From a virus: DNA of 64,000 bases. A program made the position numbers and the translations under genes. The notes under the pieces are model-generated. The model was given only the letters and a program-made list of their open reading frames with translations, was not told where the DNA came from and did no database searches. The first letter of the stretch is position 1; the number at the start of each line of letters is the position of its first letter. The DNA is taken from the IMG/VR virus record IMGVR_UViG_3300023296_001674; one strand, written 5' to 3'. Shown piece by piece: positions 27,777 through 48,485 of the stretch.

Positions 27777-27777
27777 A

Positions 27778-28409: not shown

Positions 28410-28733
28410 ATGTCTACAGAGAATGAAGATACGCTGCTAAGAATACAAATTGGTGAATTTTTCGATTATTATTCTGGTGGTGGCGAAGAAATTATAGAAA
28501 AACTCGCAAAAGATACTGGTGTTACAGTAGAGGCTTATCGTTATAATATGTTTATGGATCATATACATGGCGGGTTGGTTGAAACATCAAGAAATCTTTA
28601 TGAAGAAATGATGATAGACCTTGAAAATGATTTTGATGATTTATGTGACGATGATATGGATTTGGTATTTACATCAGATGAAGATGAAGATGAATATGTT
28701 CCATGGTACAAGAAATTTTTAGGATTAAAATAA
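28410..28733 (+). CDS. hypothetical acidic protein
   Basis: GAGGA RBS. Confidence 0.7.
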   Translation: MSTENEDTLLRIQIGEFFDYYSGGGEEIIEKLAKDTGVTVEAYRYNMFMDHIHGGLVETSRNLYEEMMIDLENDFDDLCDDDMDLVFTSDEDEDEYVPWYKKFLGLK

Positions 28734-29341: not shown

Positions 29342-29350
29342 AGGATAACA

Positions 29351-29704
29351 ATGTCAGAAGATACTTTTTCAAATTGTGTAGCGATAAAACTACAAGAAGG
29401 CACGAAAGTTAATATAATATGTGAGCGATTATATGATTATTTAGATGCATCAAATAACACAAAAGATTATAGCGTGCAATCCGGCAATGACTTTATTGCA
29501 TTTTATAGCAAAAACGAAGATCATTACGGTATTACACGTGTTGGCGATCCAAATTACGAATTCATAAATATTTGGAGAAGTTTGATGGATATATGCTATG
29601 AATTAAAAATTCCTGTTAATACATATGTTCCTAAATATTATACTGATTTTTGGTATAATGGCAGCGATTGTAATTCAGAGGGAATGGATTGGAAGGATTT
29701 ATAA
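29351..29704 (+). CDS. hypothetical protein
   Basis: AAGGA RBS. Confidence 0.65.
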   Translation: MSEDTFSNCVAIKLQEGTKVNIICERLYDYLDASNNTKDYSVQSGNDFIAFYSKNEDHYGITRVGDPNYEFINIWRSLMDICYELKIPVNTYVPKYYTDFWYNGSDCNSEGMDWKDL

Positions 29705-30147
29705 TGGAAAAACTTACAGACACGTGCTATTATTATGAAGACAAAGGTGTGGCGATAGTAATGCCAGAGCATTCTAATATATGGATTGTTATTTCAAAAG
29801 CGGGTAAATATTTATTTTCAGCAAAAGATTACGACATGTGTGAAAATTTTGTAAAGGATATAAAAATGAAAAAGCACGCAACTTCAATAACTGGATTTGA
29901 TACGTTGAATGATGCAGCCCAAGAGATTGGAAAGTTGCGCTATGATGCACTATCTAAGTTTTTAGAATGTCTAGCAGAAGAAATGTCAAGACAACAAGTT
30001 AAAGACCGCAATGCCGGAAAGAGAAAATTAGCCGGTCATGCAGGGATGATGATTTCTGAATTATATCGCGCACGCACCGCTACTAAAATGTTGTTCGACA
30101 AATATAAGTGTTTCATGAAGGAAGAATTGGATGCCGAAAAAAGTTAA
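29704..30147 (+). CDS. hypothetical protein
   Basis: ORF. Confidence 0.6.
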   Translation: MEKLTDTCYYYEDKGVAIVMPEHSNIWIVISKAGKYLFSAKDYDMCENFVKDIKMKKHATSITGFDTLNDAAQEIGKLRYDALSKFLECLAEEMSRQQVKDRNAGKRKLAGHAGMMISELYRARTATKMLFDKYKCFMKEELDAEKS

Positions 30148-30778
30148 AAAAGTTTTAGCAGTTGGTGCACATCCTGATGATATAGAATTAGGTTGCGCTG
30201 GAACTTTGTCTAAATTGCATAATGAAGGATGGGAGATAACATGTTTAATCATGATTCCACCATCTACATTAGATATTGCACGACCTAAAGACGTTGTATA
30301 TTCAGAATTTTTTGATTCATTTGAAGTGTTGGATATTGAAAATTATAATATAGTGAATTATACACCACTCCATACGAGATATAATTTAAATAATGATTGC
30401 ACTACTATTACAGAGTTTGAAAAAATCGCAAATTGGTATAGCACAGAGTGGGATTTAGTTATTACACATAGCGACGGAGATAGCCATCAAGACCATGTCA
30501 ATACATTTAATATTGTTTATAGTTTTTGTAGAAAAAACGTAAAAGAGTTGTGGTGCATGGAGTCTGGATTGTATTTTAATCGAAACCGAAACTTTAAGCC
30601 AAACGTATTTGTTGGTATCGATGATCATTTTCAAAAAAAGATGGAATCATTGGGGTGTTATAGTTCATATATGAATGACGAAAGATTGAGTTTGGTTAAA
30701 TCGTTGGCTATTATGCGTGGTGGAATGACTACACATAAATACGCAGAGGCATTTCAACAAATGCATAGAATAATATGA
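30131..30778 (+). CDS. PIG-L/LmbE family deacetylase
   Basis: GAHPDDIELG, TH..D.HQDH, YAEAF. Confidence 0.88.
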   Translation: MPKKVKKVLAVGAHPDDIELGCAGTLSKLHNEGWEITCLIMIPPSTLDIARPKDVVYSEFFDSFEVLDIENYNIVNYTPLHTRYNLNNDCTTITEFEKIANWYSTEWDLVITHSDGDSHQDHVNTFNIVYSFCRKNVKELWCMESGLYFNRNRNFKPNVFVGIDDHFQKKMESLGCYSSYMNDERLSLVKSLAIMRGGMTTHKYAEAFQQMHRII

Positions 30779-31677
30779 AAATAGTGTTGGCGGGATGTGG
30801 ACTTATTGGTCATAACGTAGTTAGTAAATTACTTGAAATATATGACGACGTTTATATCATAAATCAATCAAAAATATTTCCAGAACGTTATGCAATGTTC
30901 TCTAAATCGCCCACACAAGTGTTTATAAGAAGGACTGAAGTGTTTGATTATGTAATTGATGATGTTGATGCTTTATTTTATTTTGCATCCATCACTGATG
31001 CCAAATTAGGGCCAAAACATATGGATATTATCTCAAATGATATGTTAGTTGGAACAAAAAATTTAATAGAACGAATAAAACCAAAGCATTTCATTTATGC
31101 GAGTTCAAGTATGGCGTATGGTGAATTTAACGGAAAATCACCAAGTGAAATAACATTAAAAAGTCCAATTGAACCTTATGGCATGTTAAAAAGCATTAGC
31201 GAAGAAACTGTTAAATTTTACTGCCAACAAAATGATATAAATTATACTATTGTTCGCCCATCTGCGGTTTATGGACCAAGGGCAACATATAAAAATGTAA
31301 TAGATCACTTTATAATCAATGCGATGAATGATAAACCATTAATTTTACATGGTGATCACACATTAGATTTTACACATGCTGAAGATGTGGCAGATGGCGT
31401 TATAAGTATGTTGAATAATGAAAAAGCAATCAACCAAACATTTAATATGACTGCTGGACGGGCTAGATCATTGACCGAAGCAGCAAATATAGTTATAGAT
31501 GTTGTAGGCAAGGGTGAATATATATTGGAAGATCATAATGAGTTTTATCCCAAACGCGGTGCATTGGATATATCCAAAGCAAAGTTGTTATTGGGGTATG
31601 AACCAGCATATGATTTAGAAACTGGAATATTTAAATATGTTGAATATCTTAAAAGTAAGAATATAACAAAATGGTGA
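30775..31677 (+). CDS. NAD-dependent epimerase/dehydratase
   Basis: G.GLIG, ASSS..YG, YGMLK, VYGP, DFTHAEDVA. Confidence 0.88.
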   Translation: MKIVLAGCGLIGHNVVSKLLEIYDDVYIINQSKIFPERYAMFSKSPTQVFIRRTEVFDYVIDDVDALFYFASITDAKLGPKHMDIISNDMLVGTKNLIERIKPKHFIYASSSMAYGEFNGKSPSEITLKSPIEPYGMLKSISEETVKFYCQQNDINYTIVRPSAVYGPRATYKNVIDHFIINAMNDKPLILHGDHTLDFTHAEDVADGVISMLNNEKAINQTFNMTAGRARSLTEAANIVIDVVGKGEYILEDHNEFYPKRGALDISKAKLLLGYEPAYDLETGIFKYVEYLKSKNITKW

Positions 31678-31928
31678 CAACTGTTGTTCACTGCAAAAAG
31701 CGACCATACGATGTTTATATAGGTCGCCCTGAAAAATGGGGAAACCCATTCACTATAGGCAAAGATGGAAATCGTGGCGATGTTATTGAAAAATATATTG
31801 ATTGGTTGATGAACCAACCCGTGTTATTAAACGATGTTCATGAGTTGAAAGATAAAATATTAGGTTGTTGGTGCCATCCAAAATCATGCCATGGCGATAT
31901 ATTAGCGGAGATAGCAAATAAATTATGA
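31671..31928 (+). CDS. DUF4326 protein
   Basis: YIGRP.KWGNPF, LGCWCHP..CHGD. Confidence 0.85.
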   Translation: MVTTVVHCKKRPYDVYIGRPEKWGNPFTIGKDGNRGDVIEKYIDWLMNQPVLLNDVHELKDKILGCWCHPKSCHGDILAEIANKL

Positions 31929-32188
31929 AAGATATGTACGACCAAAACCCAAATGACGTCAAAAAAGTATCATATGAAGATTTTTTATTGATGTTTGGAT
32001 TATATGGCACTTATTATATGACATGCGATGAACGACATTCTATAGTCGGGTTGCGGCACAAAGCATTAACTGCAATGCTAGGATATGAAATGGCAATGAG
32101 CATTATTGGTGTTCAGCCAATGGCTGGACCAGTTGGGCAAATTTTTACATTAAAAACAAAATATGGTGGTTCGATCAATAAGAATTGA
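31925..32188 (+). CDS. small protein carrying T4-like major capsid (gp23) motif
   Basis: IIGVQPMAGPVGQIFTLK. Confidence 0.65.
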   Translation: MKDMYDQNPNDVKKVSYEDFLLMFGLYGTYYMTCDERHSIVGLRHKALTAMLGYEMAMSIIGVQPMAGPVGQIFTLKTKYGGSINKN

Positions 32189-32757
32189 TCCATTCGTTTA
32201 TTCTACTGAACGCTATTTCGTTTCCTTGTTTTGTGAAATGATTTACATCGCCACGATGTTGTTGAAAGATATCAAATAATCCTATATATGGTGTAAAATT
32301 ATATATGTTGGAATAATCAAATCCAGAAACATGTAGAATGTTTTTACTTGAAGTAATATCATCTATTTCTTTGCATAATAATTGATGCATATGTAAATAA
32401 TATTCTTCATCGAATATATATGTTGGAATAATCCACAGCGACCTGTGCTATTTTTGATTCACGGCGCATGTTGGATACATCTGTAAATATTAAGTCAGAA
32501 TTTGCATATTCATCGTCGTGTATTTTACCGTTAAAATAAACACGATTGGGTGATGTATGACCGATTATGATTTTATCATAATCTTCGATATTCACTGATT
32601 GTAATTGCTTCAATATTTTATACTCGGAACATCCACGTTGTGCAATATTCGTTATGTTGTATATTTTATCATCGAATAATCGATTCCAACTTTTATTGTT
32701 GTGTGCATCGAATTCTGCGACGAAACTATCACCAATTAATAGTATGTTTATTGACAT
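32175..32757 (-). pseudogene. frameshifted SGNH-like gene
   Basis: GDSF..N.AQ.GCSEYKI in first ORF, NHF..GN in second; frame break near 32420. Confidence 0.6.
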
Positions 32758-32860
32758 ATATAATCTCTTATGTTACATTATTTACACTTATTTAGTACAA
32801 AATAATTAGTCGAGTATTCTCCATTTATCAACAAAACACCAATTAGCGCTAAATATATGT

Positions 32861-33439
32861 ATGGATATTAAACAAGAAATACTGCATTGGATTAAATCAT
32901 TTGTGGAAACACCACACCCTATGTGGGGTGATTTACCACCGTGTCCGTATGCTAGATCGGCAAGAATTAATGGCGAACTTGATATACAAGTGCAAGATGA
33001 TTCTTCATATTATGATTTTTTAGATCAACAAATTGAAACTTTTTATGAAACTGAGTTTGATACGAGGTTGGTTGTTGCTAAAAATAAAGATGATATTGAT
33101 ATAGAAACGTATCGCAACTATATACATGAAAAAAATAAACACGTGATTGAGTTTAATTTAATATTGTTAACTGATCATCCTGATGTTTCGGAATATAATC
33201 ATGGCGTAAATGTCCAACAAGGATCATATGTGATTACGTTCATTCAACGAACAAATAAATTGTTAGATGCTTCAAAAAAATTGCACATTAATACTGATTA
33301 TTATAATGGATGGGATGAGAATATTTATAAGACGGTTGTTCTTGATCGTTTTGATAAAACTGAAACTTATATAAATGGTTTAATAGACGGACCAATCATA
33401 ATTCACGATAAACCAACATGGATGAAACAAAAGAAGTAA
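32861..33439 (+). CDS. hypothetical protein (PPCPYA motif)
   Basis: ORF after CTAAATA. Confidence 0.7.
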   Translation: MDIKQEILHWIKSFVETPHPMWGDLPPCPYARSARINGELDIQVQDDSSYYDFLDQQIETFYETEFDTRLVVAKNKDDIDIETYRNYIHEKNKHVIEFNLILLTDHPDVSEYNHGVNVQQGSYVITFIQRTNKLLDASKKLHINTDYYNGWDENIYKTVVLDRFDKTETYINGLIDGPIIIHDKPTWMKQKK

Positions 33440-33444
33440 TTTAG

Positions 33445-33547
33445 GGATGGTTTACTTTCCGTTGTAAGAGCGCCATGGCAGTACTTACAGCGTCAGCACA
33501 AACGGAAGGTAGTCTGACATGGCGAGTGACGCCCCAATCATCCACCA
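33445..33547 (+). ncRNA. CCA-ended pseudoknotted RNA
   Basis: ggatggtt/aatcatcc A CCA; tactttccgtt/aacggaaggta; loop cgccatggcag pairs with ctgacatggcg. Confidence 0.6.
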
Positions 33548-33549
33548 AC

Positions 33550-33837
33550 TTAACCTAGCGATGGATCATCAGACCAACGGATCATAGCAAATGTTACTTC
33601 TAATATAGCATCTTCTGGCGTTAGATCAAACCACTCACCCGACACTTTTTTGCGTGCATTAGCGTGGTGTATCTTTTTTTCAAGCAATCGAACATGTTCT
33701 TTTCGAACTTCTTGTTTGTGATGAATTTTTAATTTTTGTGGATTACCAGTTTGAATGGAAGACAGTCGTTTTTCGACATCTTGGCTAAATCCAATTTTTT
33801 GTGACCCTGATTCGGGTCCGATTACATATATAAACAT
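33550..33837 (-). CDS. T5orf172/GIY-YIG domain protein
   Basis: FIYVI..KIGFS..KRL..IQTGNP, GEWF. Confidence 0.85.
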   Translation of the reverse strand: MFIYVIGPESGSQKIGFSQDVEKRLSSIQTGNPQKLKIHHKQEVRKEHVRLLEKKIHHANARKKVSGEWFDLTPEDAILEVTFAMIRWSDDPSLG

Positions 33838-33920
33838 AATGTATTTAGTATGTAAAAATCATGAATTATAAACCGACAAAAGTCAGGCGGAAATCATGAA
33901 AAAACGATTGTATTATGAGT

Positions 33921-34001
33921 TGTACTGTGGAGGAAGCGGAATACTCATTGGTTTGCAAAACCGACGCCGAAAGGATTGCAGGTTCGAGTCCTGCCGAGAA
34001 G
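33921..34001 (+). pseudogene. pseudo-tRNA, GCA (Cys) anticodon, unpaired acceptor
   Basis: ttggt-TT GCA AA-accga and gcagg-TTCGAGT-cctgc intact; acceptor not paired. Confidence 0.55.
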
Positions 34002-34031
34002 GAATAATACCCTAGAACATAATACAACCAC

Positions 34032-34108
34032 GCGCTTGTGGGCAAATGGCAAAGTCGCTGCATTAAGACCGCAGAGTTATGGAGGTTCGAGTCCTCTCAG
34101 GCGCACCA
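34032..34108 (+). tRNA. tRNA-Leu(AAG)
   Basis: gcgcttg/caggcgc A CCA; TT AAG AC loop. Confidence 0.8.
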
Positions 34109-34120
34109 ATTATAAATTAT

Positions 34121-34192
34121 ATGGCTGTAGCGTAGAGTTTAGTTACTTCGTATTAGGAACGACTGGGACAGGTTCGAATCCTGTGCATCGCA
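34121..34192 (+). pseudogene. degenerate tRNA
   Basis: acagg-TTCGAAT-cctgt T arm, tcgt/acga stem; acceptor broken. Confidence 0.4.
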
Positions 34193-34341
34193 TGCGCGGT
34201 GTTAGTGTAGGGGTAGCACAGTAAAATCTCTAAATTCGATATTTTCTCAGCCTGTAATAAATCGTAATATATGTTGACTTTACAATACCTTAATATAATG
34301 TTAAATTGCGTGCAATGCAGCATAAATACTGGAGTATGAAA

Positions 34342-35169
34342 ATGAAACAACGAACAATACAAAATCAAATTGAAATAAGTGGTCGAGGATTGCATGGCGG
34401 CTTAGATAACACTATGGTATTGAAACCATCTGGTGTTAATAGTGGTATTGTGTTTGTTTTGAATGGTTTTAGAGTGCCAGCATTATATACGAATGTTCGT
34501 AACACTATGTTATCGACTGGTATTAACACTAATGATGCTGCTATTAACACAATTGAACATATGATGGCTACTTTGTCAGCATTTGGTGTAGATAACGTTG
34601 ATATAACGTTAGAAAATTCCGAAGTTCCGATTCTTGATGGATCGGCTATGGATTTAGTGAATATATTGACGAAATGTGGTATAAAAGTGCAATCAGCCGA
34701 CAAGCGATGTTATCGTTTTGATTATAATGAATTTAAATCAGAGCATAAATCAATTGTTGTGCATCCATCCGATGAATTAACGATTGAAATGAATATAGAT
34801 TTTGATGGTTTCATCGGCAAACAATCTCGCACTTATAAACATACATTGAATAATTTTATAACTGAACTTGCACCCGCAAAAACGTTTTGTCGTGAAGTAG
34901 ACATTGATAATATGCGTGACGCAGGGTTGATAAAGGGTGGTTCTGTTGATAATGCCGTTATTTACGGTGATAATGGCGCACTTAATGATGTTCGGTTCGT
35001 TGATGAGCCTGTTCGCCATAAGATACTTGATTTTGTTGGTGATTTGTATACAATGGGTTGTATGTCGTTAGGTCATTTTGTCATTCATTCAACGGGTCAT
35101 GAATATACCAATAAATTTTTACGATATGTATTAGACGCCAAACCTTTTGTGTTGCATCCACTTATATAA
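34342..35169 (+). CDS. lpxC: UDP-3-O-acyl-GlcNAc deacetylase
   Basis: QRTI..G.GLHGG, TIEHMMA, EVPILDGSA, RF.DEPVRHKILDFVGDL, GH. Confidence 0.93.
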   Translation: MKQRTIQNQIEISGRGLHGGLDNTMVLKPSGVNSGIVFVLNGFRVPALYTNVRNTMLSTGINTNDAAINTIEHMMATLSAFGVDNVDITLENSEVPILDGSAMDLVNILTKCGIKVQSADKRCYRFDYNEFKSEHKSIVVHPSDELTIEMNIDFDGFIGKQSRTYKHTLNNFITELAPAKTFCREVDIDNMRDAGLIKGGSVDNAVIYGDNGALNDVRFVDEPVRHKILDFVGDLYTMGCMSLGHFVIHSTGHEYTNKFLRYVLDAKPFVLHPLI

Positions 35170-35208
35170 TAAATATATCTATGAACTATTCACGATAAGG
35201 TTGGTTAA

Positions 35209-35613
35209 ATGAAAATTTTTATTATAGACGACGACAGTTTAATAACAATCATGTTAAAATCTATATTAGAAAAAATCGATCCATTAGTTGAGATTGAATT
35301 TCGTGATTTCGATGTAAATGTAATAGATCAATTTATGTTATTTCTACCGGATGTTGTGTTTTGCGACATATTCATGCCACATAAAGATGGTTTTGATATA
35401 ATGAGTGATATATCAAGACACTTAGAAGGTAATAATGCATATCCTAACGGCGTTAGATTTATTATCATGTCAGGGCAAAATCCAAAATATTTAAAATATT
35501 CAGAACAGTTGTCAAAGATTTTGAATGTAAATGTAGTCCAAACAATGGAAAAACCATTGGATTACAATGTTATCAACAAAATAATGAAGCCATTATTAAA
35601 ATTAATTATGTAA
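35209..35613 (+). CDS. single-domain response regulator (CheY-like)
   Basis: IIDDD, DIFMP.KDG, MSG, KP. Confidence 0.85.
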   Translation: MKIFIIDDDSLITIMLKSILEKIDPLVEIEFRDFDVNVIDQFMLFLPDVVFCDIFMPHKDGFDIMSDISRHLEGNNAYPNGVRFIIMSGQNPKYLKYSEQLSKILNVNVVQTMEKPLDYNVINKIMKPLLKLIM

Positions 35614-35618
35614 AATGA

Positions 35619-35646
35619 GTCCCGGTCGTCTATCGGTTTAGGATAT
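35619..35646 (+). pseudogene. truncated 5' fragment of a tRNA-Glu-like gene
   Basis: gtcccgg-tc-gtct-atcggttt-agga, then abuts next tRNA. Confidence 0.55.
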
Positions 35647-35722
35647 TACCCTATCGTCTAAAGGTAAGGACGCAAGATTCTCAATCTTGAAATGCTCGGT
35701 TCAAGTCCGGCTAGGGTTGCCA
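35647..35722 (+). tRNA. tRNA-Glu(CUC)
   Basis: caaga-TT CTC AA-tcttg; GCCA. Confidence 0.82.
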
Positions 35723-35724
35723 AG

Positions 35725-36417
35725 TTATAGATGTTTTTCATACAGCTCGAATATTTTATTTTGATTTTTGTTATAAGATTTTTTGATATAATCAAATATG
35801 GGTAACATTTCTTTGCGTTGTAAAACTTTTACAGATGGATTTTGATCACTCTTGGCTTTGGATACAACGTCCATATAACCTTTTATCTCCACTAACTCGT
35901 TATTAGTTATAAAATCTGGATAATATTTGCGGATTGTATTAGTGTTAGGATTGATATATAATAATGGTGTAGTATTTCGTTTTATCGAAATATTATGATC
36001 TAAACAATATATAACATAAGCCAACTCCCAAGAGGAATCGCATAATATAGAGTTGTATATACCTTTTTTTCCATGGCGATAACTCTCAGCTCTTAGACCG
36101 CCGCTCTTGACGCATGATGTTGAACAATGAACACGAGGTGAAGATTTAAGTGTAGAAAATATAGATTTACAGGTTGGGCAGACCGATTTTTTATACTTTG
36201 ATGGATCACCAGAAAAACTTAATGATCTGTCTTTATTAAATCCTGTTGGGTTTTTATGAGCATATTCTCTATTTTCTTGTTTTCGTTGTTCAGACATAGA
36301 ACCACGGCTATTGGCACACGAACGCGAACAGTATTTGGGTGTATATCCCCATTTTATTTTTTTAGTGAATGATTTTTGACATTTGGGACAAGTCCCTGTA
36401 TAAATACTATTAGACAT
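35725..36417 (-). CDS. putative homing endonuclease (Zn fingers and PD-(D/E)xK, TnsA-like)
   Basis: CPKC..YCSRSC, DSSWE, YYPDF..VEIKG. Confidence 0.75.
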   Translation of the reverse strand: MSNSIYTGTCPKCQKSFTKKIKWGYTPKYCSRSCANSRGSMSEQRKQENREYAHKNPTGFNKDRSLSFSGDPSKYKKSVCPTCKSIFSTLKSSPRVHCSTSCVKSGGLRAESYRHGKKGIYNSILCDSSWELAYVIYCLDHNISIKRNTTPLLYINPNTNTIRKYYPDFITNNELVEIKGYMDVVSKAKSDQNPSVKVLQRKEMLPIFDYIKKSYNKNQNKIFELYEKHL

Positions 36418-36680
36418 TATTGATACTCCCATATCTGTATTGTTTAGAAACCGCTTATGTGTTGATGCACATGGCGGTTTTGTTATATATATTTATTATT
36501 TTTATTGATTTTTTGGATTATTTCATATATACTAAATATTAATAGAAGTCAATTTGAGTGTGTAAACCACCCCGAGACTATGATCTCAATCGATTGAGTT
36601 AGTTTGAACAACAGGGGACGAGATTTAATTATTTCTTTAGGGAACTTCCATTTTGATCAACATAACAAGGAGTGTATATT

Positions 36681-36779
36681 ATGATTAAAGAAACACAAGG
36701 TATAACGAAAACACCCGGCGGTGGCGGTGGTGCGATTGATCTTCGCGAAGGATTAATTGAAGGAACGCATACACCATGA
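36681..36779 (+). CDS. 32-aa microprotein (GGGGGAI)
   Basis: AAGGAG RBS. Confidence 0.55.
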   Translation: MIKETQGITKTPGGGGGAIDLREGLIEGTHTP

Positions 36780-36862
36780 TTGATTTAATGATTTCAGCAA
36801 ACGGCATTCGTGGACCCTTTATTGGTGGCGCAGATGGTGCTATATCGGACGAAAAACCATGA
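36776..36862 (+). CDS. 28-aa microprotein (IGGADGAI)
   Basis: ATGA overlap, GAAGGA RBS. Confidence 0.5.
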   Translation: MIDLMISANGIRGPFIGGADGAISDEKP

Positions 36863-36881
36863 TTTTAAAAAGGATAATATT

Positions 36882-37049
36882 ATGAAAACATCTACAGAAA
36901 CAATGATTGGTGGATTAGGTGATGTAATGGAAGACCCTATAGACACGGTTCATATTGAAGACCCATTGGGTCGCATTGGTGGACAAGATGGCGCAATCGG
37001 CGCGGATCAATATATAGATGCTAAAAAGCCACACGATCAAGATTTATAA
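36882..37049 (+). CDS. 55-aa microprotein (IGGQDGAI)
   Basis: AAGGA RBS. Confidence 0.6.
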   Translation: MKTSTETMIGGLGDVMEDPIDTVHIEDPLGRIGGQDGAIGADQYIDAKKPHDQDL

Positions 37050-37056
37050 AAAATAT

Positions 37057-37143
37057 GGAGGGTAAAATGAGCAGGGACTCGTTGCCGCATGGAACGCGGT
37101 TGGTACCATAGAGTATTCGTTTCGATTCCAATTCTTTCCGCCA
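37057..37143 (+). tRNA. tRNA-Ser(GGA), degenerate T arm
   Basis: ccgc-AT GGA AC-gcgg; long D stem; GCCA. Confidence 0.55.
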
Positions 37144-37287
37144 TATTAAGTGAAGACCACTATTTTGACCCAGTGGTCTATAAAGATGAAGCCGCTATCA
37201 TTAAGTTGAATAGTGAGTGAGGTCGCAGTGTCCGTTTATCGAGGAATCATGGATTTGAAATATCGGTTGTTAGAAACTGCCTAACAT

Positions 37288-37374
37288 GGAAGATTAACCA
37301 GTCAGGGTACTGGGACCGTTTCGAAAGCGGATCGCACCTCACGGTGTAGATTTCGAGTATCTAATCTTCCGCCA
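37288..37374 (+). tRNA. tRNA-Ser(CGA)
   Basis: Paralog of 20354; TT CGA AA; GCCA. Confidence 0.8.
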
Positions 37375-38333: not shown

Positions 38334-38526
38334 TTGGTGTGATGCCACCAATGATGAGAAGCGAGGTTACAGTCGCAAAAAACCATTCAAATAATGATGC
38401 TCATAATTTATTTGTATACGATGAGTCGTAGATTGGACTGCGTTAGTTGTAGAGGGTGGAGAGTTTTACTCGGTGAAGCCGTTATGCGACATTCAATGTT
38501 TTTTAATATACGATAAGGTGTGCCAT

Positions 38527-39870
38527 ATGTATGAAATAACACTAGTTACTATTTTATTTCTTTTATTTGGTGTAGCAGTAGGAACATTTTCTGGATTGCT
38601 TCCGGGTATAGGAGCAACAGTATCGCTTCTTTCTTTATATCCATTCCTTATCCACGTCGAACCAATGAATATTATTATTTTTTATATCGCTCTACTGAGT
38701 ACCAGTCAATATATGGGTTCAGTTAGTTCCACGGTGTTGGCTATTCCTGGTGAACTGAGTAGCCTACCTGCCGTCACAGAAGGGCATAACTTATATTTGC
38801 AAGGGAAAGGTGCATACGCTATATCGGGAACTGCCATTGGCTCTTGGGTGGGTTCATTTTTCTCTGTTATATTCGTGTTGTTTATTAGTTCATATTTGGT
38901 GAATTTTGTATTTTTTTATAGCACAATTTTTCAAAGTGTGTTGTTGTTATCGGTTTGTGCATTGTTTATAGTTACTGGACATAATAGGTGGTACATTAAT
39001 GCATTGTTATGCGCTGTTGGGTATTTTCTTGGTGCTATAGGAACGCACTCGATAACACAACAATCGTTTTTGGTTTTTGGAATACCGGAACTTATTCAAG
39101 GATTGCCGTTATTTCCTATATTGATAACATTATATATAATACCAGAAATCGTAAAAGGTTTTAATAAACAACATTATAATAATGTCGATTTTTCATATCA
39201 AAGCCAACCAATGATGAGTCATATTAAAGTTGCTCTGAATAATTTTGGTTCTATTTTAAGAGGATCATTTATAGGTTTTTTTGCAGGATTGATACCATAT
39301 TTAACTACGATTGTCGCTTCTAATTTGAGTTATTCTATAGAAGTGTGGTTGGAGAAAAGAAAAAACACATATTCGGTTGGTAATTTACCGTCTTTGATTT
39401 CCTCTGAAACTGCCAATAATGCAGCAGCATTGAGTAGTTTATTGCCATTGTTGTTATTGGGCCTACCAATAACTTCGTCTGAAGCAATACTTTCTAATAT
39501 ATTGTCATATTCTGGACATTTTTTTATGTTAGAAAGTTTTACAGGATTGTTTATTTCTATCGCGATTTGTTTGGTGATTATAAACAGTTTGGCATTAATT
39601 TTATCGTGGCCCATTGTTAAATATTTTCGATTTTTTTATAAAATAGATATGAAAAGTTTATATACATTCATTATTGCGTTGTTGTTTTCATTGATGATAT
39701 ATAATGGGTTATATAACGAACGAGTAATTTATTATATATTGATAACAGTGACGATGGCACCATTGAGTTTTATATTACGTAAAACAAACACGATGCCATT
39801 GATTTTCGTTTTCATGATGCAAAATGAAATAGAATCAAATTTATTTAGACTGCCATATTTGCTGTTTTGA
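38527..39870 (+). CDS. tctA: tripartite tricarboxylate transporter TctA-like permease
   Basis: GLLPGIG, QY.GS...IPGE, ETANNAAA..PLL.LG.P; many TMs. Confidence 0.85.
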   Translation: MYEITLVTILFLLFGVAVGTFSGLLPGIGATVSLLSLYPFLIHVEPMNIIIFYIALLSTSQYMGSVSSTVLAIPGELSSLPAVTEGHNLYLQGKGAYAISGTAIGSWVGSFFSVIFVLFISSYLVNFVFFYSTIFQSVLLLSVCALFIVTGHNRWYINALLCAVGYFLGAIGTHSITQQSFLVFGIPELIQGLPLFPILITLYIIPEIVKGFNKQHYNNVDFSYQSQPMMSHIKVALNNFGSILRGSFIGFFAGLIPYLTTIVASNLSYSIEVWLEKRKNTYSVGNLPSLISSETANNAAALSSLLPLLLLGLPITSSEAILSNILSYSGHFFMLESFTGLFISIAICLVIINSLALILSWPIVKYFRFFYKIDMKSLYTFIIALLFSLMIYNGLYNERVIYYILITVTMAPLSFILRKTNTMPLIFVFMMQNEIESNLFRLPYLLF

Positions 39871-39935
39871 TATTGACCATTAGTTCAAATGTGTGGTATA
39901 AATAATGCACTTATTATAATTGAAGGAATATATTA

Positions 39936-40817
39936 ATGAAAAATATTATACTCACTATGGCAGTCGTATTGCTTTCTATGAACGTCGCACAAGCAAAGGA
40001 TTCATTGCAATTTATTGTTCCAGGAGATGGAACCGGATCATTTAAACCACGGATACAAGAATTAAAGCAACAATTATCAGAATCTTATGGTGCAGATGTA
40101 GATGTTAGATGGGTTGGCAATTGCGCAAAAGCAAAGCAAATCATACAATCAACCGTGCATCCTACTATAACTATTTGGGATGCTGGTTGGAATACCACAA
40201 CTGAATGCAAATTTGATGTTTCAACTTCTAACATTATCGCAGTTGAAACAAATTACATGCGTTTTTGTGCAAGTAATGTTGCAGTGAATACTAGTGGTGC
40301 ACTTATTGCCATTTCTGGTGGGTTTAAAGTTGGTCACAGCACGCCACACACAGCCTATTCCAAATGGTTTGATAAGTTCAACCATGCAGCAAAGACAAAC
40401 CTATCACCTGTTCCTTATGGATCAAGCGGAAGGGCACGTCGTGGCATGTTGGCTGGTGATGTAGATTATATTTTTGTTAGTCCGTCCAACGCTAACAAGG
40501 TAATGAAAAATGGCGGCAAATGCGATTACAGCACTGCGCCAAATGGTGAACCAAAATACAATCTTGCTGCATTGCGCACAGTTGTCGACTTTCCAGAAGC
40601 GACTATTAATCAAGCATATTTTTATAGTTCTAAAAATGTTTCAGAAGCAGATTTGTTTGCATTGCGTGATTTATTCAGTTTCATTGCTGATGATAAAACA
40701 AGCAATTATAATGTGTGGGCAGACACCAAAGATATTTCGTTGTCTGGAATAAGTAAACTCGATACTGATGAAATGTTAACATTGGTGGAAACCACTGTTG
40801 AACTTTGGTCAAATTGA
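39936..40817 (+). CDS. periplasmic substrate-binding protein (TctC-like)
   Basis: Signal peptide; VPYG.SG...MLAGDVD; adjacent to tctA. Confidence 0.65.
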   Translation: MKNIILTMAVVLLSMNVAQAKDSLQFIVPGDGTGSFKPRIQELKQQLSESYGADVDVRWVGNCAKAKQIIQSTVHPTITIWDAGWNTTTECKFDVSTSNIIAVETNYMRFCASNVAVNTSGALIAISGGFKVGHSTPHTAYSKWFDKFNHAAKTNLSPVPYGSSGRARRGMLAGDVDYIFVSPSNANKVMKNGGKCDYSTAPNGEPKYNLAALRTVVDFPEATINQAYFYSSKNVSEADLFALRDLFSFIADDKTSNYNVWADTKDISLSGISKLDTDEMLTLVETTVELWSN

Positions 40818-41865: not shown

Positions 41866-42186
41866 ATGGAAATAGAAAAGAAAGTGAAAATTATAGAGGA
41901 ATTTTATGGCAGTTGTGCGGAAATCCTCGGTACAGAGCATGAATTTAGAGATCATGTTCCAAGGCCAAGAATGAGTAGAACCGGTGAAATATATACACCA
42001 GATACATCACATACAAGATGGAATAGACCGCTTGGAAATGGAAGATTTCCGGGTTATGGTTCAATTAGATTATTTTGGCCTGATACGGTTATATTTTCAT
42101 TAACGAAACCAAAAACGGTTACAAAGACGATCAATGGTAGAGAAAAAGCATTGGAGTTTTTGCGTGAGGTGGTGAAAAATGGTTAA
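41866..42186 (+). CDS. hypothetical protein
   Basis: TTGACA..TATAAA promoter; ORF. Confidence 0.7.
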   Translation: MEIEKKVKIIEEFYGSCAEILGTEHEFRDHVPRPRMSRTGEIYTPDTSHTRWNRPLGNGRFPGYGSIRLFWPDTVIFSLTKPKTVTKTINGREKALEFLREVVKNG

Positions 42187-42223
42187 TACATGGTTTACAA
42201 GCGACATGCACTTAGGTCATTAA
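42179..42223 (+). pseudogene. orphan 5' remnant of metallophosphoesterase
   Basis: MVNTWFTSDMHLGH* with GAGG RBS, truncated by endonuclease cassette. Confidence 0.8.
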
Positions 42224-42272
42224 ATCGCCGATTTTGATAAATACTATATATAATGATTATATAGGATTGAAT

Positions 42273-43154
42273 ATGACAAAAATAGAGTTAATATGCCCAA
42301 ACTGCAAATCCGTTTTTAATAGATATAAATCTACGATTAGAAAAAATCAAAAATATGTTTATTGTAGTAAAAAATGCAAAGGTGAATATGAAAAATCTAA
42401 TAAATTGTTGCATGGGGAAAATAACCCCAACTATGGTAAAACATGGTCAACACAACAACGCAAGTTAGCATCCAATAAAATGGTGGGTAACAATAAAGGT
42501 AAATCATATGAGGATTTATACGGTAAATGTCGTTCCGATGACTTGAAAAATCAACGTAGTGTATCAATGAAAGAACATCGATCAAAGAACCCGATATCTG
42601 GAATTGATAATCCTTTTTTTGGTAAAACACATGATGAAAAAACAAAACGTATAATAGGTGAAAAATCGAAAGATAAATTCACTGATGATTATATGACAAA
42701 ATATAGAACAGTGATGGAGAATGCTGGTCATTGGATTCCGTTAAAGGATAAATCTGATTATGAAATATATTTTAAACAGGCGGAATGGTGTGAAAAAATG
42801 TTTGATCGCGCATCCGATGTTGAAATATTATTATTGCGTGAATATGGTGTTTTCAACAATAAAACAAACACGAAGGGTGTAGTAAGAGATCATATATATT
42901 CAAGAAAGAGTGGGTTTGAGAATGGGGTGTTTCCTATATTATTAAGACATCCAGCTAATTGTGGCATTATTACTCATTCTGATAATGTTAAAAAGAAAAC
43001 ATCGAGGTATATCGATAAAGATGGTCATACTATTGATGAGTTGTTTTTACGCATAGAAACCTATAAAAATAAATGGATTGAACATGATGATTGTTTAATG
43101 TTAATAGATGATTATATTAATGGAAAACGATGGAAACGAGAGGAGGAATTATAA
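42273..43154 (+). CDS. homing endonuclease (NUMOD3 and HNH-like)
   Basis: CPNC..YCS..C, NPFFGKTH, RDHIYSR..HPANC; late promoter 42236. Confidence 0.8.
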   Translation: MTKIELICPNCKSVFNRYKSTIRKNQKYVYCSKKCKGEYEKSNKLLHGENNPNYGKTWSTQQRKLASNKMVGNNKGKSYEDLYGKCRSDDLKNQRSVSMKEHRSKNPISGIDNPFFGKTHDEKTKRIIGEKSKDKFTDDYMTKYRTVMENAGHWIPLKDKSDYEIYFKQAEWCEKMFDRASDVEILLLREYGVFNNKTNTKGVVRDHIYSRKSGFENGVFPILLRHPANCGIITHSDNVKKKTSRYIDKDGHTIDELFLRIETYKNKWIEHDDCLMLIDDYINGKRWKREEEL

Positions 43155-43155
43155 A

Positions 43156-43715
43156 ATGAAACAGAATGTATACTTTACATCTGATCTTCATTTAGGTTAG
43201 CCTTCGGGCTAATTTATGAAGGACATACTAATATTATTAAATATTGCAATAGACCATATGTGGATGCCGACGAAATGGATGCCGCACTTATAAACAACTG
43301 GAACTCCGTGGTACAACCGGACGACATTGTTTATAACTTGGGCGATTTTACTTTTTCAAGAAATGCTGAAAAATACCTAGCACGATTGAATGGAGTGAAG
43401 CACTTAATCAAAGGCAATCACGACAAACAACCTAGCCCAAGTCAGGGATGGGCAAGCGTCAATGATTACCGTGAAGTGCGTGTAGAAGGACAATTCATTG
43501 TTCTTATGCATTATTCTATGAAAGTTTGGAATAAATCACACGGCGGCGCTTGGCAATTGTTTGGTCATTCGCATAATACCCTCCCTGATGATCCAAATGC
43601 ATTATCTATCGATGTAGGCGTAGATGCTCATGGTTACTTTCCGATTTCTTTTAGAGATGTGAAAAGAATTATGGCAAAGAAAAACTACAAACCGGTTGAT
43701 CATCATGGAAGATAA
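43156..43715 (+). CDS. calcineurin-like metallophosphoesterase interrupted by a 26-nt coding gap (43198-43223)
   Basis: TSDLHLG | HTNII..RP, LGDF, GNHD, H, GHSH, DVGVD; AGGAGG RBS. Confidence 0.85.
43193..43223 (+). other. candidate translational bypass element (T4 gene 60-like)
   Basis: GGT-TAG-CCTTCGGGCTA hairpin ... GGA landing codon. Confidence 0.7.
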
Positions 43716-44628: not shown

Positions 44629-45561
44629 ATGAAACAAAAAACATTTGATGATATTAGAACTCTTACTAAAAGCGATTTTAAATCGTTAACACAAAAAGCA
44701 TTAAAATCTTGTGAAGAAGTAGGCGAGTTAGCAAAAGTTGTTTTGCCGTTTGAAAATGCGTATGCTACAACGCATCGATTTGTCGACAAAGATAAAATAC
44801 TTGAAGAAGTTTGTGATGTTGTACTCACGACTCTTTCTGTTGCATATGAACTTGAATTCAATGATGATGATATAGATGCTATGTTAAATCGAAAAATAAA
44901 AAAATGGGCAGAAATGCAACATCGTGAAACAAAGGCTGACTATCCAGTCCCATATGAAATACACATTACTGTTACAACTGATGACATTCCAAAATTTAAA
45001 AATATATGCGATGATATTGGCGTAAAGCCGATTGTGATAGATTTACAAAACCGTAGTGGCGTTTCGATAATGGATGATGTTATGACTTCATCGACGCATG
45101 TGGGCAATAATAATAGCGTATATATTGAGATGAAACGCATATCTGATGCAATGGTTGAATATGGTTTGACCGTACTTCGCGAGAAGATAGAAACTGTTCC
45201 ATGGCATCCTGCTGCCCCATCGAATGACCATGCGGATAAAACTATGCCAAAAGATTGTTATTTTGAAGCACATTTTGGTGTATTATGCACAAATGAAACA
45301 TTACCGAAGTTGGGCAAATTAGCCAAAAATACGGGTTCTCATTTATCAAGAAATGCATTTAAGAAACATGATGATGGTCGTGTTACGATGATGATCACTC
45401 ATCGCCGAAAGGATTGCACTTCTGAAACCTTCGCAAACGCTGTTGAAGCCATAAAACAAACGCTGGCTGAAGAATTTGAAGTTAAAAAAGTTATTGTAGA
45501 GTTTTCAGTATTTGATACAAAGGTGAATCATGATGCAACTTGGATAACGAATAATACATAG
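44629..45561 (+). CDS. MazG-like nucleotide pyrophosphohydrolase fused to unknown domain
   Basis: K..EEVGEL...EEVCDV; C-terminal EIHIT/YFEAH repeats. Confidence 0.75.
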   Translation: MKQKTFDDIRTLTKSDFKSLTQKALKSCEEVGELAKVVLPFENAYATTHRFVDKDKILEEVCDVVLTTLSVAYELEFNDDDIDAMLNRKIKKWAEMQHRETKADYPVPYEIHITVTTDDIPKFKNICDDIGVKPIVIDLQNRSGVSIMDDVMTSSTHVGNNNSVYIEMKRISDAMVEYGLTVLREKIETVPWHPAAPSNDHADKTMPKDCYFEAHFGVLCTNETLPKLGKLAKNTGSHLSRNAFKKHDDGRVTMMITHRRKDCTSETFANAVEAIKQTLAEEFEVKKVIVEFSVFDTKVNHDATWITNNT

Positions 45562-45571
45562 GAGAGTAAAA

Positions 45572-46219
45572 ATGACTGACGTAAAAACAGAAGAATTGCT
45601 GTTCTCAGAAACATTGTTTAACTATAAAAAACGTCGTTCTGCGATGCGTTATTATTTACAGGGTCGTGGATATTTTATCGCATTAAAAGCGATGAACTTT
45701 GCTGATGCTCATCATAAAGGAACTAGAAAAGATTTAATCACACCGGCTTTTGACCATCAAATACGCATTGCGCATTTTGTTCGAACGCTACCAGATTTAT
45801 TATATCAAGAGGAAACGATTGCTACAGTGTTGTTACATGATACGCCTGAAGATTATGACGTTGGTCATGATGAAATAGAACTCAAATTTGGTTCCATTGT
45901 TTCAGTTGCAACAGAACTTGTCACCAAAGTGCATCGCGGTGATAAAAAACACATGCCGACATACTTTGATCAAATAGCAACCGATCCGATTGCAAGTATT
46001 GTTAAGGGTGCTGATCGTGTTCATAACCTACAGTCGATGGTTGGTGTATTTGATGAGAAAAAACAACTTCAATATATGGATGAAGTGCGTCGATTTTTCT
46101 TACCGATGTTAAAGAAGGCAAGACGAAATTTTCCAGAGCAAGAAGCAGCATATGAAAATATAAAACATATGTTGGTGTCACAATTGGAATTGTTGGAAGT
46201 TATTAATGGGAGCAAATAA
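45572..46219 (+). CDS. HD-domain (p)ppGpp hydrolase (small alarmone hydrolase-like)
   Basis: H.G.RK, LLHDTPED, VTK, VK.ADRVHNL. Confidence 0.85.
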   Translation: MTDVKTEELLFSETLFNYKKRRSAMRYYLQGRGYFIALKAMNFADAHHKGTRKDLITPAFDHQIRIAHFVRTLPDLLYQEETIATVLLHDTPEDYDVGHDEIELKFGSIVSVATELVTKVHRGDKKHMPTYFDQIATDPIASIVKGADRVHNLQSMVGVFDEKKQLQYMDEVRRFFLPMLKKARRNFPEQEAAYENIKHMLVSQLELLEVINGSK

Positions 46220-46722
46220 TGATAAAAAAAACACATAGTCAAATAGAAAAAATGAATGAAGACATAGATCGAATCTACCGACTTGGAAAAATGTTGGATA
46301 AAAAAACGCGAGAATTAAAAGACCAAAAGAAAAGAAAAATTGAAGAAACTAAAAAATTGGTTGATTGGGCATTGGTTACTGATAATGAAAATGTAAAAGA
46401 CCTGCGTGAACAGTGGTTGATGGCTGCTACACTTATATATGATAAAAACGAAGCAAAACAAGAACTAGAATCAAAAGAATTCAACATATCCGACACGCTT
46501 GGTCCTACACAGGTCTTAAGTCAAGACGATATTGATGGTTTGTTGGGTTTTGACGATGAAGTGGTCGATGATGATGAGGAAGATGGTGATTTAGCCGCCG
46601 AATGGGAAATCATGATGGGTGGTGATATAGACGAGAATGATGATTATCTTAATCCTAATATATCAGACTCACTTGAGATGACCGTGGAATCTATTCGTCG
46701 AACGCTACAACGAAATCACTAA
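46219..46722 (+). CDS. hypothetical protein with FliM-N-like motif
   Basis: VLSQDDIDGLLGFD, LAAEW. Confidence 0.65.
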   Translation: MIKKTHSQIEKMNEDIDRIYRLGKMLDKKTRELKDQKKRKIEETKKLVDWALVTDNENVKDLREQWLMAATLIYDKNEAKQELESKEFNISDTLGPTQVLSQDDIDGLLGFDDEVVDDDEEDGDLAAEWEIMMGGDIDENDDYLNPNISDSLEMTVESIRRTLQRNH

Positions 46723-46792
46723 CGATGAGATAATGATTGACTGATATTAATAAACAAAGTATAATAAGGATTAAATTAAAGAGGAGTATGTT

Positions 46793-47572
46793 ATGATAGG
46801 TGCAGTTATTGGTGATATTATTGGTTCTGTTTATGAAATGCATAATCATTTTTCAAAAGATTTTCCATTATTCAATGGTGGAAATTCAATGACCGACGAT
46901 ACAGTTTGCACAGTTGCTATTGCGGATTGTTTGATGAACGGAAACGATGATTTCGATGTATATCTTCGTAAATACTGTTTAGAGAACATCCATGCTGGTT
47001 ATGGTGGAATGTTTATCAAATGGCTTAAGGATGATTCCATTGGCGCATATGATAGTTGGGGTAATGGTGGCGCAATGCGTGTTAGTTCAGTGGCTTATGT
47101 TGCCACTACGTTAGAAGAAGCAATGGATATGGCAAAGCGTACATGTATGGTGACACATAGCCATCCAGAGGGCATAAAAGGCGCACAAGCATTGATATCT
47201 GCAATGTGGTTCGTTAAGGAAGGTCATAACGCTGAAAATATCGAATTAATGATAGAAAATGAATTTGGATATGATTTAAATCAAACAATGGAAGATTTGT
47301 GGAAGACATATGGCGAGTTTGATGTATCTGCTGCTGGCAGTGTGCCGCAAGCTATTATTTGCGCACTACGTTCGACTAGTTATGAAGATGCCATAAGAAA
47401 CGCGGTTTCTATTGGTGGTGATTCTGATACCATTGCGTGTATGGCTGGAGCAATTGCTGAGTTGATGTATGATGGCGTTCCAGATGAGATAAAAGATAAA
47501 GCATTTAGGGCATTGCCGCCTAAATACATTGCAGTTATTGATCAATTTACAAAAAAGTATAATAATGTATAA
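46793..47572 (+). CDS. ADP-ribosylglycohydrolase (DraG/ARH family)
   Basis: GDIIGS, TDDT, GNGGAMR, TH.HPEG, GGDSDT. Confidence 0.93.
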   Translation: MIGAVIGDIIGSVYEMHNHFSKDFPLFNGGNSMTDDTVCTVAIADCLMNGNDDFDVYLRKYCLENIHAGYGGMFIKWLKDDSIGAYDSWGNGGAMRVSSVAYVATTLEEAMDMAKRTCMVTHSHPEGIKGAQALISAMWFVKEGHNAENIELMIENEFGYDLNQTMEDLWKTYGEFDVSAAGSVPQAIICALRSTSYEDAIRNAVSIGGDSDTIACMAGAIAELMYDGVPDEIKDKAFRALPPKYIAVIDQFTKKYNNV

Positions 47573-47738
47573 CGTTATAAAAAATACACCAGTATCTATA
47601 TTTGTGATATTGCTTTTATGGTATATGGCATTGAATTCTGTTATTGTGTTAATGCCATTCGCTATAATTAGTGTTATAATGGCGACGTTTATTATGAAAA
47701 CTGAAATACAAAAAGAAATAGCAATTATAAGGGCATGA
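47565..47738 (+). CDS. small membrane protein
   Basis: Hydrophobic ORF. Confidence 0.5.
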   Translation: MYNVIKNTPVSIFVILLLWYMALNSVIVLMPFAIISVIMATFIMKTEIQKEIAIIRA

Positions 47739-47744
47739 TTATAA

Positions 47745-48485
47745 ATGAGTGACTTAGAAAAGATGCGTGCTGCTGGAAAATTGGCAGCACAAACGTTAGA
47801 TTATCTTAAACATCGTGTTGTTGACGGTATAACCACAAATGAAATTAATAAAGTAGTTCATGACTTCACAATTGACCACGGTGCGATTCCTGCACCTTTG
47901 AATTATAAAGGATTTCCAAAATCTGTATGCACATCAGTTAATCATGTAGTATGTCATGGCATTCCAAGTGATAAGGTGTTGCACGATGGCGATATAGTAA
48001 ACATTGATGTTACAACAATATTAGATGGGTGGCATGGTGATACCAGTAGAACATTTTTGGTGGGAAAACCATCAATTAAAGCAAAGAAATTAGTTGAAAC
48101 AACACGCGAAGCCATGATGCGTGGTATTGAAGTGATAAAACCCGGTGCTACCACTGGCGACATTGGTCATGCAATAGAAAGTTTCGTAAATGGAAAATAT
48201 GGAATAGTTAAAGATTATTGTGGTCATGGTATTGGTGAGGAATTTCACACCAATCCACAAATATTTCATCACGGACAATCAGGAACAGGAACTACTTTGA
48301 TAGAAGGTATGTTTATAACTGTAGAGCCAATGCTTAATATAGGTAAAGACGCAGTAAAAGAGTTATCGGATGGTTGGACGGTTGTTACGCGTGATCGCAG
48401 TTTAAGTGCGCAATTTGAGCATACTATAGCAGTTGTTGCTGATGGTTATGAAATATTAACACTGTCCGACAATGACCGCATTTAA
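47745..48485 (+). CDS. map: methionine aminopeptidase type I
   Basis: CTSVN.VVCHGIP, DVT..GWHGDTS, GHGIG, EPM, SAQFEHT. Confidence 0.96.
   Translation: MSDLEKMRAAGKLAAQTLDYLKHRVVDGITTNEINKVVHDFTIDHGAIPAPLNYKGFPKSVCTSVNHVVCHGIPSDKVLHDGDIVNIDVTTILDGWHGDTSRTFLVGKPSIKAKKLVETTREAMMRGIEVIKPGATTGDIGHAIESFVNGKYGIVKDYCGHGIGEEFHTNPQIFHHGQSGTGTTLIEGMFITVEPMLNIGKDAVKELSDGWTVVTRDRSLSAQFEHTIAVVADGYEILTLSDNDRI

What the first reader, a model, noticed from the sequence alone, without database searches (positions are those of the whole stretch)
42179..43715. Candidate new programmed ribosomal bypass (T4 gene 60-type hop) in a metallophosphoesterase, beside a homing endonuclease
Seen: the gene starts with a strong RBS at 43156, reads MKQNVYFTSDLHLG and stops at TAG. 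It resumes 26 nt later in another frame with HTNIIKYCNRP, so the DxHxGH metal-binding motif is split at G|H. The gap reads GGT TAG CCTTCG GGCTA ATTTATGAA GGA: a Gly take-off codon, a stop codon, a 10-bp UUCG hairpin (43193-43216) and a Gly landing codon. Established: T4 gene 60 bypassing uses GGA UAG CCUUCG GGCUA, so 14 nt are identical, with a 50-nt gap, and that insertion protects against the neighbouring MobA endonuclease. Here an endonuclease gene lies immediately upstream, and before it is an orphan remnant of an uninterrupted allele (MVNTWFTSDMHLGH*, 42179-42223). Inference: an endonuclease plus hop-protected allele invaded as one cassette. Differences from gene 60: a shorter gap, GGU/GGA unmatched at the wobble base, and only 14 upstream codons, so no long nascent-peptide signal.
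Basis: partly seen in the sequence, partly recalled or inferred. Interest (0 to 1): 0.95.

Follow-up and report, generated by a model that had tools for sequence, protein, structure and literature searches.

The report
Ribosome hop in phage phosphoesterase gene
A jumbo-phage enzyme gene is cut inside its metal-binding motif by 26 extra bases (a stop codon plus an RNA hairpin) that arrived with a selfish nuclease gene; relatives indicate that ribosomes hop over the insert as in phage T4 gene 60, but in a different gene and without T4's long peptide signal.

Summary
Observation confirmed. The 26-nt gap (43198-43223) is real: an independent 570-kb assembly is identical over 4,882 nt. Removing it gives a 177-aa phosphoesterase, 90% identical without gaps to an uninterrupted relative. 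The same stop-plus-hairpin core sits at the same G|H site in about 14 alleles from 4 host-gene lineages, with gaps of 22, 23, 25 or 26 nt resuming in either frame. Ten of 12 22-nt alleles carry a stop in the resumed frame just before the landing Gly, which excludes a plain frameshift there. A subclade that lost the nuclease keeps an unchanged gap (dS 0.7-2.4, dN/dS 0.08-0.18). Of 39 loci found through the nuclease, 29 have this motif interrupted (1-26 nt); all 19 inserts of 4 nt or more start with an in-frame stop. An empty-site relative fixes the element's left end at the remnant. Best reading: gene 60-like translational bypass protecting against the adjacent HNH-type nuclease (about 0.78); no protein or RNA data. 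It is not the MobA/topoisomerase element. Published cassettes are topoisomerase-only. This scan has already noted such gaps on other DNA, including a 22-nt version in this gene family.

The parts
42179..42223 (+). Orphan 5' remnant of the resident phosphoesterase gene (14 codons, ending G-H-stop); the element's left end begins at the TAA (42221)
   Evidence: Resembles the N-terminus of intact relative P0122. The same H-then-TAAATC junction occurs in L036, L037, L271 and L273. Empty site L326 matches filled L037 up to this H.
42273..43154 (+). 293-aa free-standing HNH-type endonuclease candidate (N-terminal Cys pairs, NUMOD3, C-terminal RDH...HP.N...N)
   Evidence: Pfam NUMOD3 4.8e-8; invariant D206, H207, H226, N229, N238 in 62 homologs; best structural matches are HNH domains but weak (Foldseek E 0.29-1.7; 4h9d Z 4.0, rmsd 4.2, 72 aligned).
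43140..43147 (+). Ribosome-binding site of the replacement 5' end, inside the nuclease's last codons
   Evidence: Sequence
43156..43197 (+). Element-borne replacement ORF1, 14 codons, ending in take-off codon GGT (43195-43197)
43198..43223 (+). 26-nt coding gap: TAG, core hairpin 43198-43211 with UUCG loop, AU-rich tail, landing codon GGA 43221-43223
   Evidence: identical in L264
43185..43222 (+). Extended take-off stem-loop (16 bp): the gap's tail pairs with codons 11-14 of ORF1
   Evidence: z -4.95; tail complementarity p=0.03 against random tails, and swapping tails between lineages costs 3-8 kcal/mol for this allele
43224..43715 (+). ORF2: resident part of the calcineurin-like phosphoesterase (163 codons) with GD, GNHD, HY and GHxH motifs intact
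   Evidence: family phrog_547 and PDB 1xm7 (aq_1665) via P0122

Best explanation
A homing cassette (HNH-type nuclease + new RBS + a recoded copy of the first 14 codons + the gap) inserted after the DxHxxH codons of a phage phosphoesterase gene, leaving the old 5' end as a remnant. The 26-nt insert breaks the nuclease's presumed target in the new allele. The protein is still made because the ribosome pauses with peptidyl-tRNA-Gly on GGU and UAG in the A site, the top of the hairpin folds, and the tRNA detaches, slides 26 nt, re-pairs at GGA and resumes at His15. The product is 177 aa (20.3 kDa). Shown: anatomy, mobility pattern, selection on protein and gap. Inferred: cleavage site, immunity, and the hop itself and its efficiency.
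For: (1) Precise removal gives 90% identity with no gaps to intact P0122 over 175 aa. (2) 15 distinct hairpin alleles at the same G|H site have gaps of 22/23/25/26 nt, resume in +1 or +2, and end in a Gly codon in 14 of 15. Four were found through the nuclease rather than by pattern (L264, L265, L273, L280). (3) In 10 of 12 22-nt alleles a TAA in the resumed frame directly precedes the landing GGT, so no single frameshift can restore the frame. (4) Tails differ between lineages yet each pairs with its own upstream codons (p 0.004-0.05). (5) The all-gapped, nuclease-less subclade L034/L038/L044/L046 (SH-aLRT 99) has dS 0.73-2.40, dN/dS 0.08-0.18 and 0 differences in the gap; the segment between landing and the next Met is also constrained. 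(6) Of 39 nuclease-ascertained loci, 10 are intact (most lack the motif Gly), 10 have +1 nt at UUU-Y and 19 have 4-26 nt inserts. All 19 start with an in-frame stop and 15 land on a synonymous, often non-identical codon. This reading-frame logic points to the ribosome. (7) Gapped and intact alleles interleave on trees; the window's allele is sister to intact P0122 (100/98). (8) Precedent: in T4, GGA-charged tRNA lands on GGU or GGC when the normal site is removed; the bypass insert protects against MobA.
Against: Take-off and landing are GGU/GGA, outside the same-tRNA rule of all published cassettes, and no tRNA-Gly was found in the 194 kb held (record about 51% complete). The nascent chain is only 14 aa, whereas T4 needs contacts at residues 16-44. 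There is no clear mini-SD 5-7 nt before landing. In this allele the resumed frame is open through the gap. L040 lands on GAC, and 4 short inserts are unmatched. The parser used codon match and stop as tie-breakers, which inflates those counts somewhat. Most hairpin alleles were found by pattern. dN/dS over the whole 22-nt set partly predates invasion.
Confidence: 0.78

Rival explanations
1. Frameshift or short hop into the open +2 frame (for example a -1 shift near codons 12-14, or landing on the GGG at gap positions 9-11), giving a protein with 5-9 extra residues in the motif.
For: The +2 frame is open from 43185 through the gap in this allele and in L043; L265, L042 and L040 have an open +1 frame. 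GGG 9-11 is a used fallback landing site in T4 mutants.
Against: Impossible in 10 of 12 22-nt alleles (stop before landing). It needs opposite shift directions in different alleles. There is no slippery heptamer, and the hairpin overlaps the site instead of lying downstream. DxHxxH spacing is fixed in 103/103 intact homologs.
Confidence: 0.07
2. The gene is dead or nearly so: the insert only blocks self-cleavage and the phosphoesterase is a dispensable passenger.
For: This allele is a recent invasion (sister 90% identical), so its intact ORF2 says little. L040 has a broken nuclease and a GAC landing.
Against: Purifying selection and an invariant gap in a nuclease-less subclade. Element-borne first codons are protein-conserved (pS 0.21 vs pN 0.03). 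All complete alleles keep the catalytic motifs. Stop-first and synonymous-landing design in 19 inserts.
Confidence: 0.06
3. Split gene: a 14-aa peptide plus re-initiation at a downstream Met/Val (43260 or 43275), with or without assembly in trans.
For: MobA- and MobE-split phage genes work as two chains; gene callers start ORF2 there.
Against: The 16-17 codons between landing and that Met are under the same constraint as the rest (dN/dS 0.15) and contain the invariant His. No RBS or start lies before that His in the 22-nt alleles.
Confidence: 0.05
4. The 26 nt are removed from the RNA (micro-intron, cut-and-ligate, or polymerase skipping) before translation.
For: A compact hairpin brings both ends close; RNA-ligase- and Thg1-like genes lie near some homologs.
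Against: Too small for a self-splicing intron, and no Rfam match. The predicted fold lacks bulge-helix-bulge geometry. It would not explain in-frame stops and synonymous flanking codons, nor the 1-nt UUU-Y alleles.
Confidence: 0.04

Closest known systems
Phage T4 gene 60 50-nt translational bypass and its homologs in the MobA element (Manning & Atkins, bioRxiv 10.1101/2022.08.31.505936; PMC5462505; PMC11194080)
   Same: Gly take-off, UAG next, identical 14-nt top of the take-off stem with CC-UUCG-GG, AU-rich 3' gap, Gly landing, insertion in a metal-binding motif, adjacent HNH nuclease, element-borne recoded copy of host sequence, retention after nuclease loss.
   Different: Host gene is a phosphoesterase, whereas all published cassettes are in the topoisomerase II large subunit. 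Gap is 22-26 nt, against 50 (shortest published 20). Take-off is at codon 11-14, against 45-46, so there is no KKYK-type signal. The landing codon lies at the base of the stem. No clear mini-SD. GGU/GGA are unmatched. The nuclease has no similarity to MobA, and the displaced 5' part is an orphan remnant rather than a functional split subunit.
Magnusiomyces mitochondrial byps (27-55 nt), Streptomyces-phage candidate bypasses, and synthetic E. coli stop-hops (as reviewed in PMC5009743)
   Same: Short gap, slow A-site codon, matched or near-matched codons, little or no nascent-peptide requirement known.
   Different: Here the insert is in a bacteriophage gene, uses a stop codon and a T4-type hairpin, and is tied to a homing endonuclease. 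PMC5009743 states no natural in-frame stop-hop was known, while the 6-nt alleles of this family look like such cases (inference).
Free-standing 'intronless homing' endonucleases of T-even phages (PMC2988022)
   Same: Nuclease beside the conserved target gene, with a resistant allele co-inherited; several nuclease-linked alleles simply change the motif Gly.
   Different: Most alleles here gain resistance by an insertion that has to be skipped in decoding.

Membership tests
Gene 60-type bypass cassette | Take-off codon followed by stop or hungry codon | tested here: met
   GGT TAG in the window and in 15/15 hairpin alleles
Gene 60-type bypass cassette | Take-off stem-loop with stable tetraloop, take-off codon in the 5' arm | tested here: met
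Gene 60-type bypass cassette | Take-off and landing read by the same tRNA | tested here: inconclusive
   GGT/GGT in 11 alleles, GGT/GGA in the window, L043 and L265, GGT/GAC in L040; host tRNA set unknown; no phage tRNA-Gly in the part held
Gene 60-type bypass cassette | Mini-SD 5-7 nt before the landing codon | tested here: not met
   That position holds AU-rich tail or the hairpin's 3' arm
Gene 60-type bypass cassette | Long nascent-peptide signal (Y16, R24, Y33 etc. in about 46 aa) | tested here: not met
   ORF1 is 14 codons (11-14 in relatives). Only positional equivalents of T40 (-6) and H44 (-2) exist, and these are enzyme-motif residues also present in intact homologs
Gene 60-type bypass cassette | One polypeptide made from unspliced mRNA across the gap | not testable with these tools
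MobA/Topo2L mobile element | Insertion in the topoisomerase II large subunit with CTE/NTE | tested here: not met
   Host is a phosphoesterase
MobA/Topo2L mobile element | MobA (or GIY-YIG/VSR) endonuclease | tested here: not met
   No tblastn match at E<10 to the 276-aa ORF upstream of the topoisomerase cassette in L077; no T4-like MobA carrier among phage hits
HNH homing endonuclease | Beta-beta-alpha-metal catalytic motif and fold | tested here: inconclusive
   Invariant DH...N...N pattern; top structural hits are HNH domains but below significance
HNH homing endonuclease | Mobility: filled and empty sites, site-specific cleavage | tested here: inconclusive
   Filled/empty pair and patchy distribution shown; cleavage not testable
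Calcineurin-like phosphoesterase (aq_1665 / phrog_547) | DxH, GD, GNH, H and GHxH motifs | tested here: met
   All present in the joined product; E 1.5e-55 to phrog_547 and 4e-12 to 1xm7 via P0122
Group I/II or BHB intron | Ribozyme core or bulge-helix-bulge at both junctions | tested here: not met
   26 nt; no Rfam match; fold lacks BHB geometry

The most novel reading that the evidence does not exclude
Programmed bypassing is a general immunity strategy of phage homing endonucleases. A minimal module (Gly codon, stop, cUUCGg hairpin, short AU tail, Gly codon) works efficiently with no long nascent-peptide signal, even with wobble-unmatched codons. It has arisen or spread in many unrelated genes (phosphoesterase here; GT9, RNase HII and PurA candidates seen in passing), and within this one family it grades into natural stop-hops and +1 shifts.
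Probability: 0.55. Interest if true: 0.92.

Novelty: new variant of a known kind. Interest (0 to 1): 0.8.

Why it matters
T4 gene 60 has long been the main phage example of programmed bypassing, and every published homolog lies in the same topoisomerase site with a long peptide signal. A natural series at one codon position, from 1 to 26 nt and sharing the T4 hairpin top without that peptide, would let the minimal requirements and the origin of bypassing be tested directly with short reporters. It also means that many phage genes annotated as truncated or pseudogenes next to homing endonucleases may be functional.

Tried and rejected
Assembly error: rejected. Suppressor readthrough or an alternative code: cannot fix a 26-nt offset, and TAG is used as a stop in this genome. 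Intrinsic terminator: not called by the scan. Rfam: no match. A single-sequence nuclease search of viral contigs found nothing; the alignment search worked. The cassette was not recognised as a gene interruption in 11 GTDB pattern hits. Cultured-phage relatives of the nuclease sit among tRNA genes, not at this gene, so no cultured carrier was found. DNA of the closest intact relatives P0122 and P0123 was unavailable, so the window element's right end is not mapped. The one-clade test did not finish; I claim patchiness, not a count of origins. Fold searches gave no significant match. No paper on phosphoesterase bypassing was found in the held library; the 2011 PNAS MobA paper was not held and is cited through Manning & Atkins. 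A strong downstream barrier hairpin was not found.

Full report
Context. The window is the last 64 kb of a 194-kb virus record. The same region lies on 570-kb contigs from independent assemblies, so this is a jumbo phage. L264 is identical to the window over 4,882 nt including the gap.

Observation. After a 106-aa ORF comes a 14-codon remnant ending G-H-stop (42179-42223), a 293-aa ORF (42273-43154), an RBS, a 14-codon ORF1 (43156-43197) ending in GGT, then TAG, a UUCG hairpin, an AU-rich tail, GGA (43221-43223) and a 163-codon ORF2 in frame +2. The region folds into a 16-bp stem (z -4.95). Joining ORF1 to ORF2 gives 177 aa, 90% identical without gaps to the uninterrupted P0122, with all metal-binding motifs present. 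The family is the aq_1665/phrog_547 calcineurin-like phosphoesterase. The His that follows the gap is invariant in 103 of 103 intact homologs.

Homologs separate them. Pattern scans and nuclease-based look-ups gave 15 distinct alleles with the same hairpin core at the same G|H site. Gaps are 22 nt (+1), 23 nt (+2), 25 nt (+1) and 26 nt (+2). Fourteen of 15 end in a Gly codon. Ten of the 12 22-nt alleles have TAA in the resumed frame immediately before the landing GGT, so the only in-frame entry point is the landing codon. The tails are unrelated in sequence, but each pairs with its own upstream codons (p 0.004-0.05); the window's tail fits the window's L-H-L-G codons and fits the other lineages poorly.

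Selection. Across the 22-nt alleles dN/dS is 0.14. Intact alleles are interleaved among them, so part of that divergence predates invasion. The cleaner test is the subclade L034/L038/L044/L046, which is all gapped, has lost the nuclease except for a relic of its last bases, and has SH-aLRT 99. There dS is 0.73-2.40, dN/dS is 0.08-0.18, and the 22-nt gap shows no difference. The segment from the landing His to the next Met is equally constrained, which argues against re-initiation.

The element. The nuclease has about 115 close homologs, NUMOD3 motifs and an invariant DH...N...N pattern. Its best structural matches are HNH domains, though weak. It shows no similarity to the ORF beside a topoisomerase cassette. 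The remnant resembles the start of P0122 more than the replacement does, and empty-site L326 matches filled L037 up to the His codon, after which the element begins with TAAATC, as in the window. The window's ORF2 is sister to intact P0122, and L265's is sister to intact P0143; the hairpin label needs at least 3 changes on the host-gene tree and at least 2 on the nuclease tree. Among 39 loci found through the nuclease (two pairs are near-duplicates), 10 downstream genes are intact, mostly without the motif Gly. Ten have one extra base at UUU-Y, and 19 have 4-26 nt inserts; all 19 start with an in-frame stop and 15 end in a synonymous codon (the parser's tie-breaks favour such placements). By contrast, the 25 readable loci of 33 found through the phosphoesterase alone are uninterrupted. 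Inference: the nuclease recognises the DxHxGH codons, and the cassette's allele escapes either by substitution or by an insert that decoding skips.

Mechanism (inferred). As in gene 60, UAG is decoded slowly, the hairpin top folds in the A site, and peptidyl-tRNA-Gly detaches and re-pairs downstream. Open problems are the 14-aa nascent chain, the missing mini-SD and the GGU/GGA mismatch. The mismatch recurs in three lineages, and T4 mutants show landing on wobble-unmatched Gly codons. T4's contacts T40 and H44 (positions -6 and -2) have positional equivalents T8 and H12 here, but these are enzyme-motif residues, so this is at most pre-adaptation.

Comparison. Manning and Atkins (bioRxiv 10.1101/2022.08.31.505936) found all cassettes in the topoisomerase gene, with same-tRNA codons, a mini-SD and a conserved peptide; the shortest gap was 20 nt. 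This element works like those but fails membership of the MobA/Topo2L family. The 14-nt identity may be convergent: the same core forms intergenic hairpins in many marine phages, and a TGA/TCA compensatory version interrupts topoisomerase and PurA genes. I found no paper on this gene. Earlier notes of this scan describe 11-, 12- and 22-nt gaps in phage phosphoesterases and similar gaps in other genes. I treat these as leads, not support; one says part of a similar claim fell on checking, without detail.

Verdict. A real, selected, mobile recoding cassette; translational bypass about 0.78; new variant of a known kind; interest 0.8, limited by the lack of expression data.

Noticed in passing
L086:10233-10254 (+): GT9-type glycosyltransferase broken after Gly15 by the same 14-nt core; 21-nt in-frame gap with two stops, GGT to GGC; no nuclease nearby.
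   Followed up: partly
L051:11805-11843 (-): RNase HII of a 388-kb phage broken after DEVG by the same core; 36-nt in-frame gap, apparent landing on AGT (mismatched); a PHROG homing-endonuclease gene overlaps upstream.
   Followed up: partly
L371 (- strand, match 2449-2465) and L346 (+, 6721-6737): TGA/TCA compensatory version of the hairpin: 32-nt gap in a PurA-like gene (GGT to GGT) and 45-nt gap in a topoisomerase (GGT to GGC).
   Followed up: partly
L270, L283, L285, L287, L291, L293, L295, L299, L309, L310: Ten nuclease-linked phosphoesterase alleles have one extra base at a UUU-U/C site in the motif: candidate natural +1 Phe frameshifts serving the same purpose.
   Followed up: partly
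L271, L275, L284, L296, L303: 6-nt in-frame inserts (codon, stop, synonymous codon), with TAG/TGA exchanged between close relatives: candidate natural stop-hops.
   Followed up: partly
L298, L301, L281, L302, L040: Inserts whose landing triplet does not match the take-off codon; unexplained.
   Followed up: no
L048, L049, L054 and about 40 similar loci: The same hairpin core is a conserved intergenic stem after an ssDNA-binding-protein-like gene in marine T4-like phages; a possible source of the motif.
   Followed up: no
window 19262-37374: Array of 23 tRNA genes without tRNA-Gly; includes tRNA-Leu(AAG), unusual for bacteria.
   Followed up: no
window 38473-40817: TctA tripartite tricarboxylate transporter gene followed by a putative periplasmic binding protein in a phage.
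   Followed up: no
window 10969-11220 (-): Weak second match to the nuclease profile (NUMOD3 region only, E 2.8e-4).
   Followed up: no
window 44629-48485: MazG-like, HD-domain, ADP-ribosylglycohydrolase and methionine aminopeptidase genes downstream; L043 also has the hydrolase downstream of its gapped gene.
   Followed up: no
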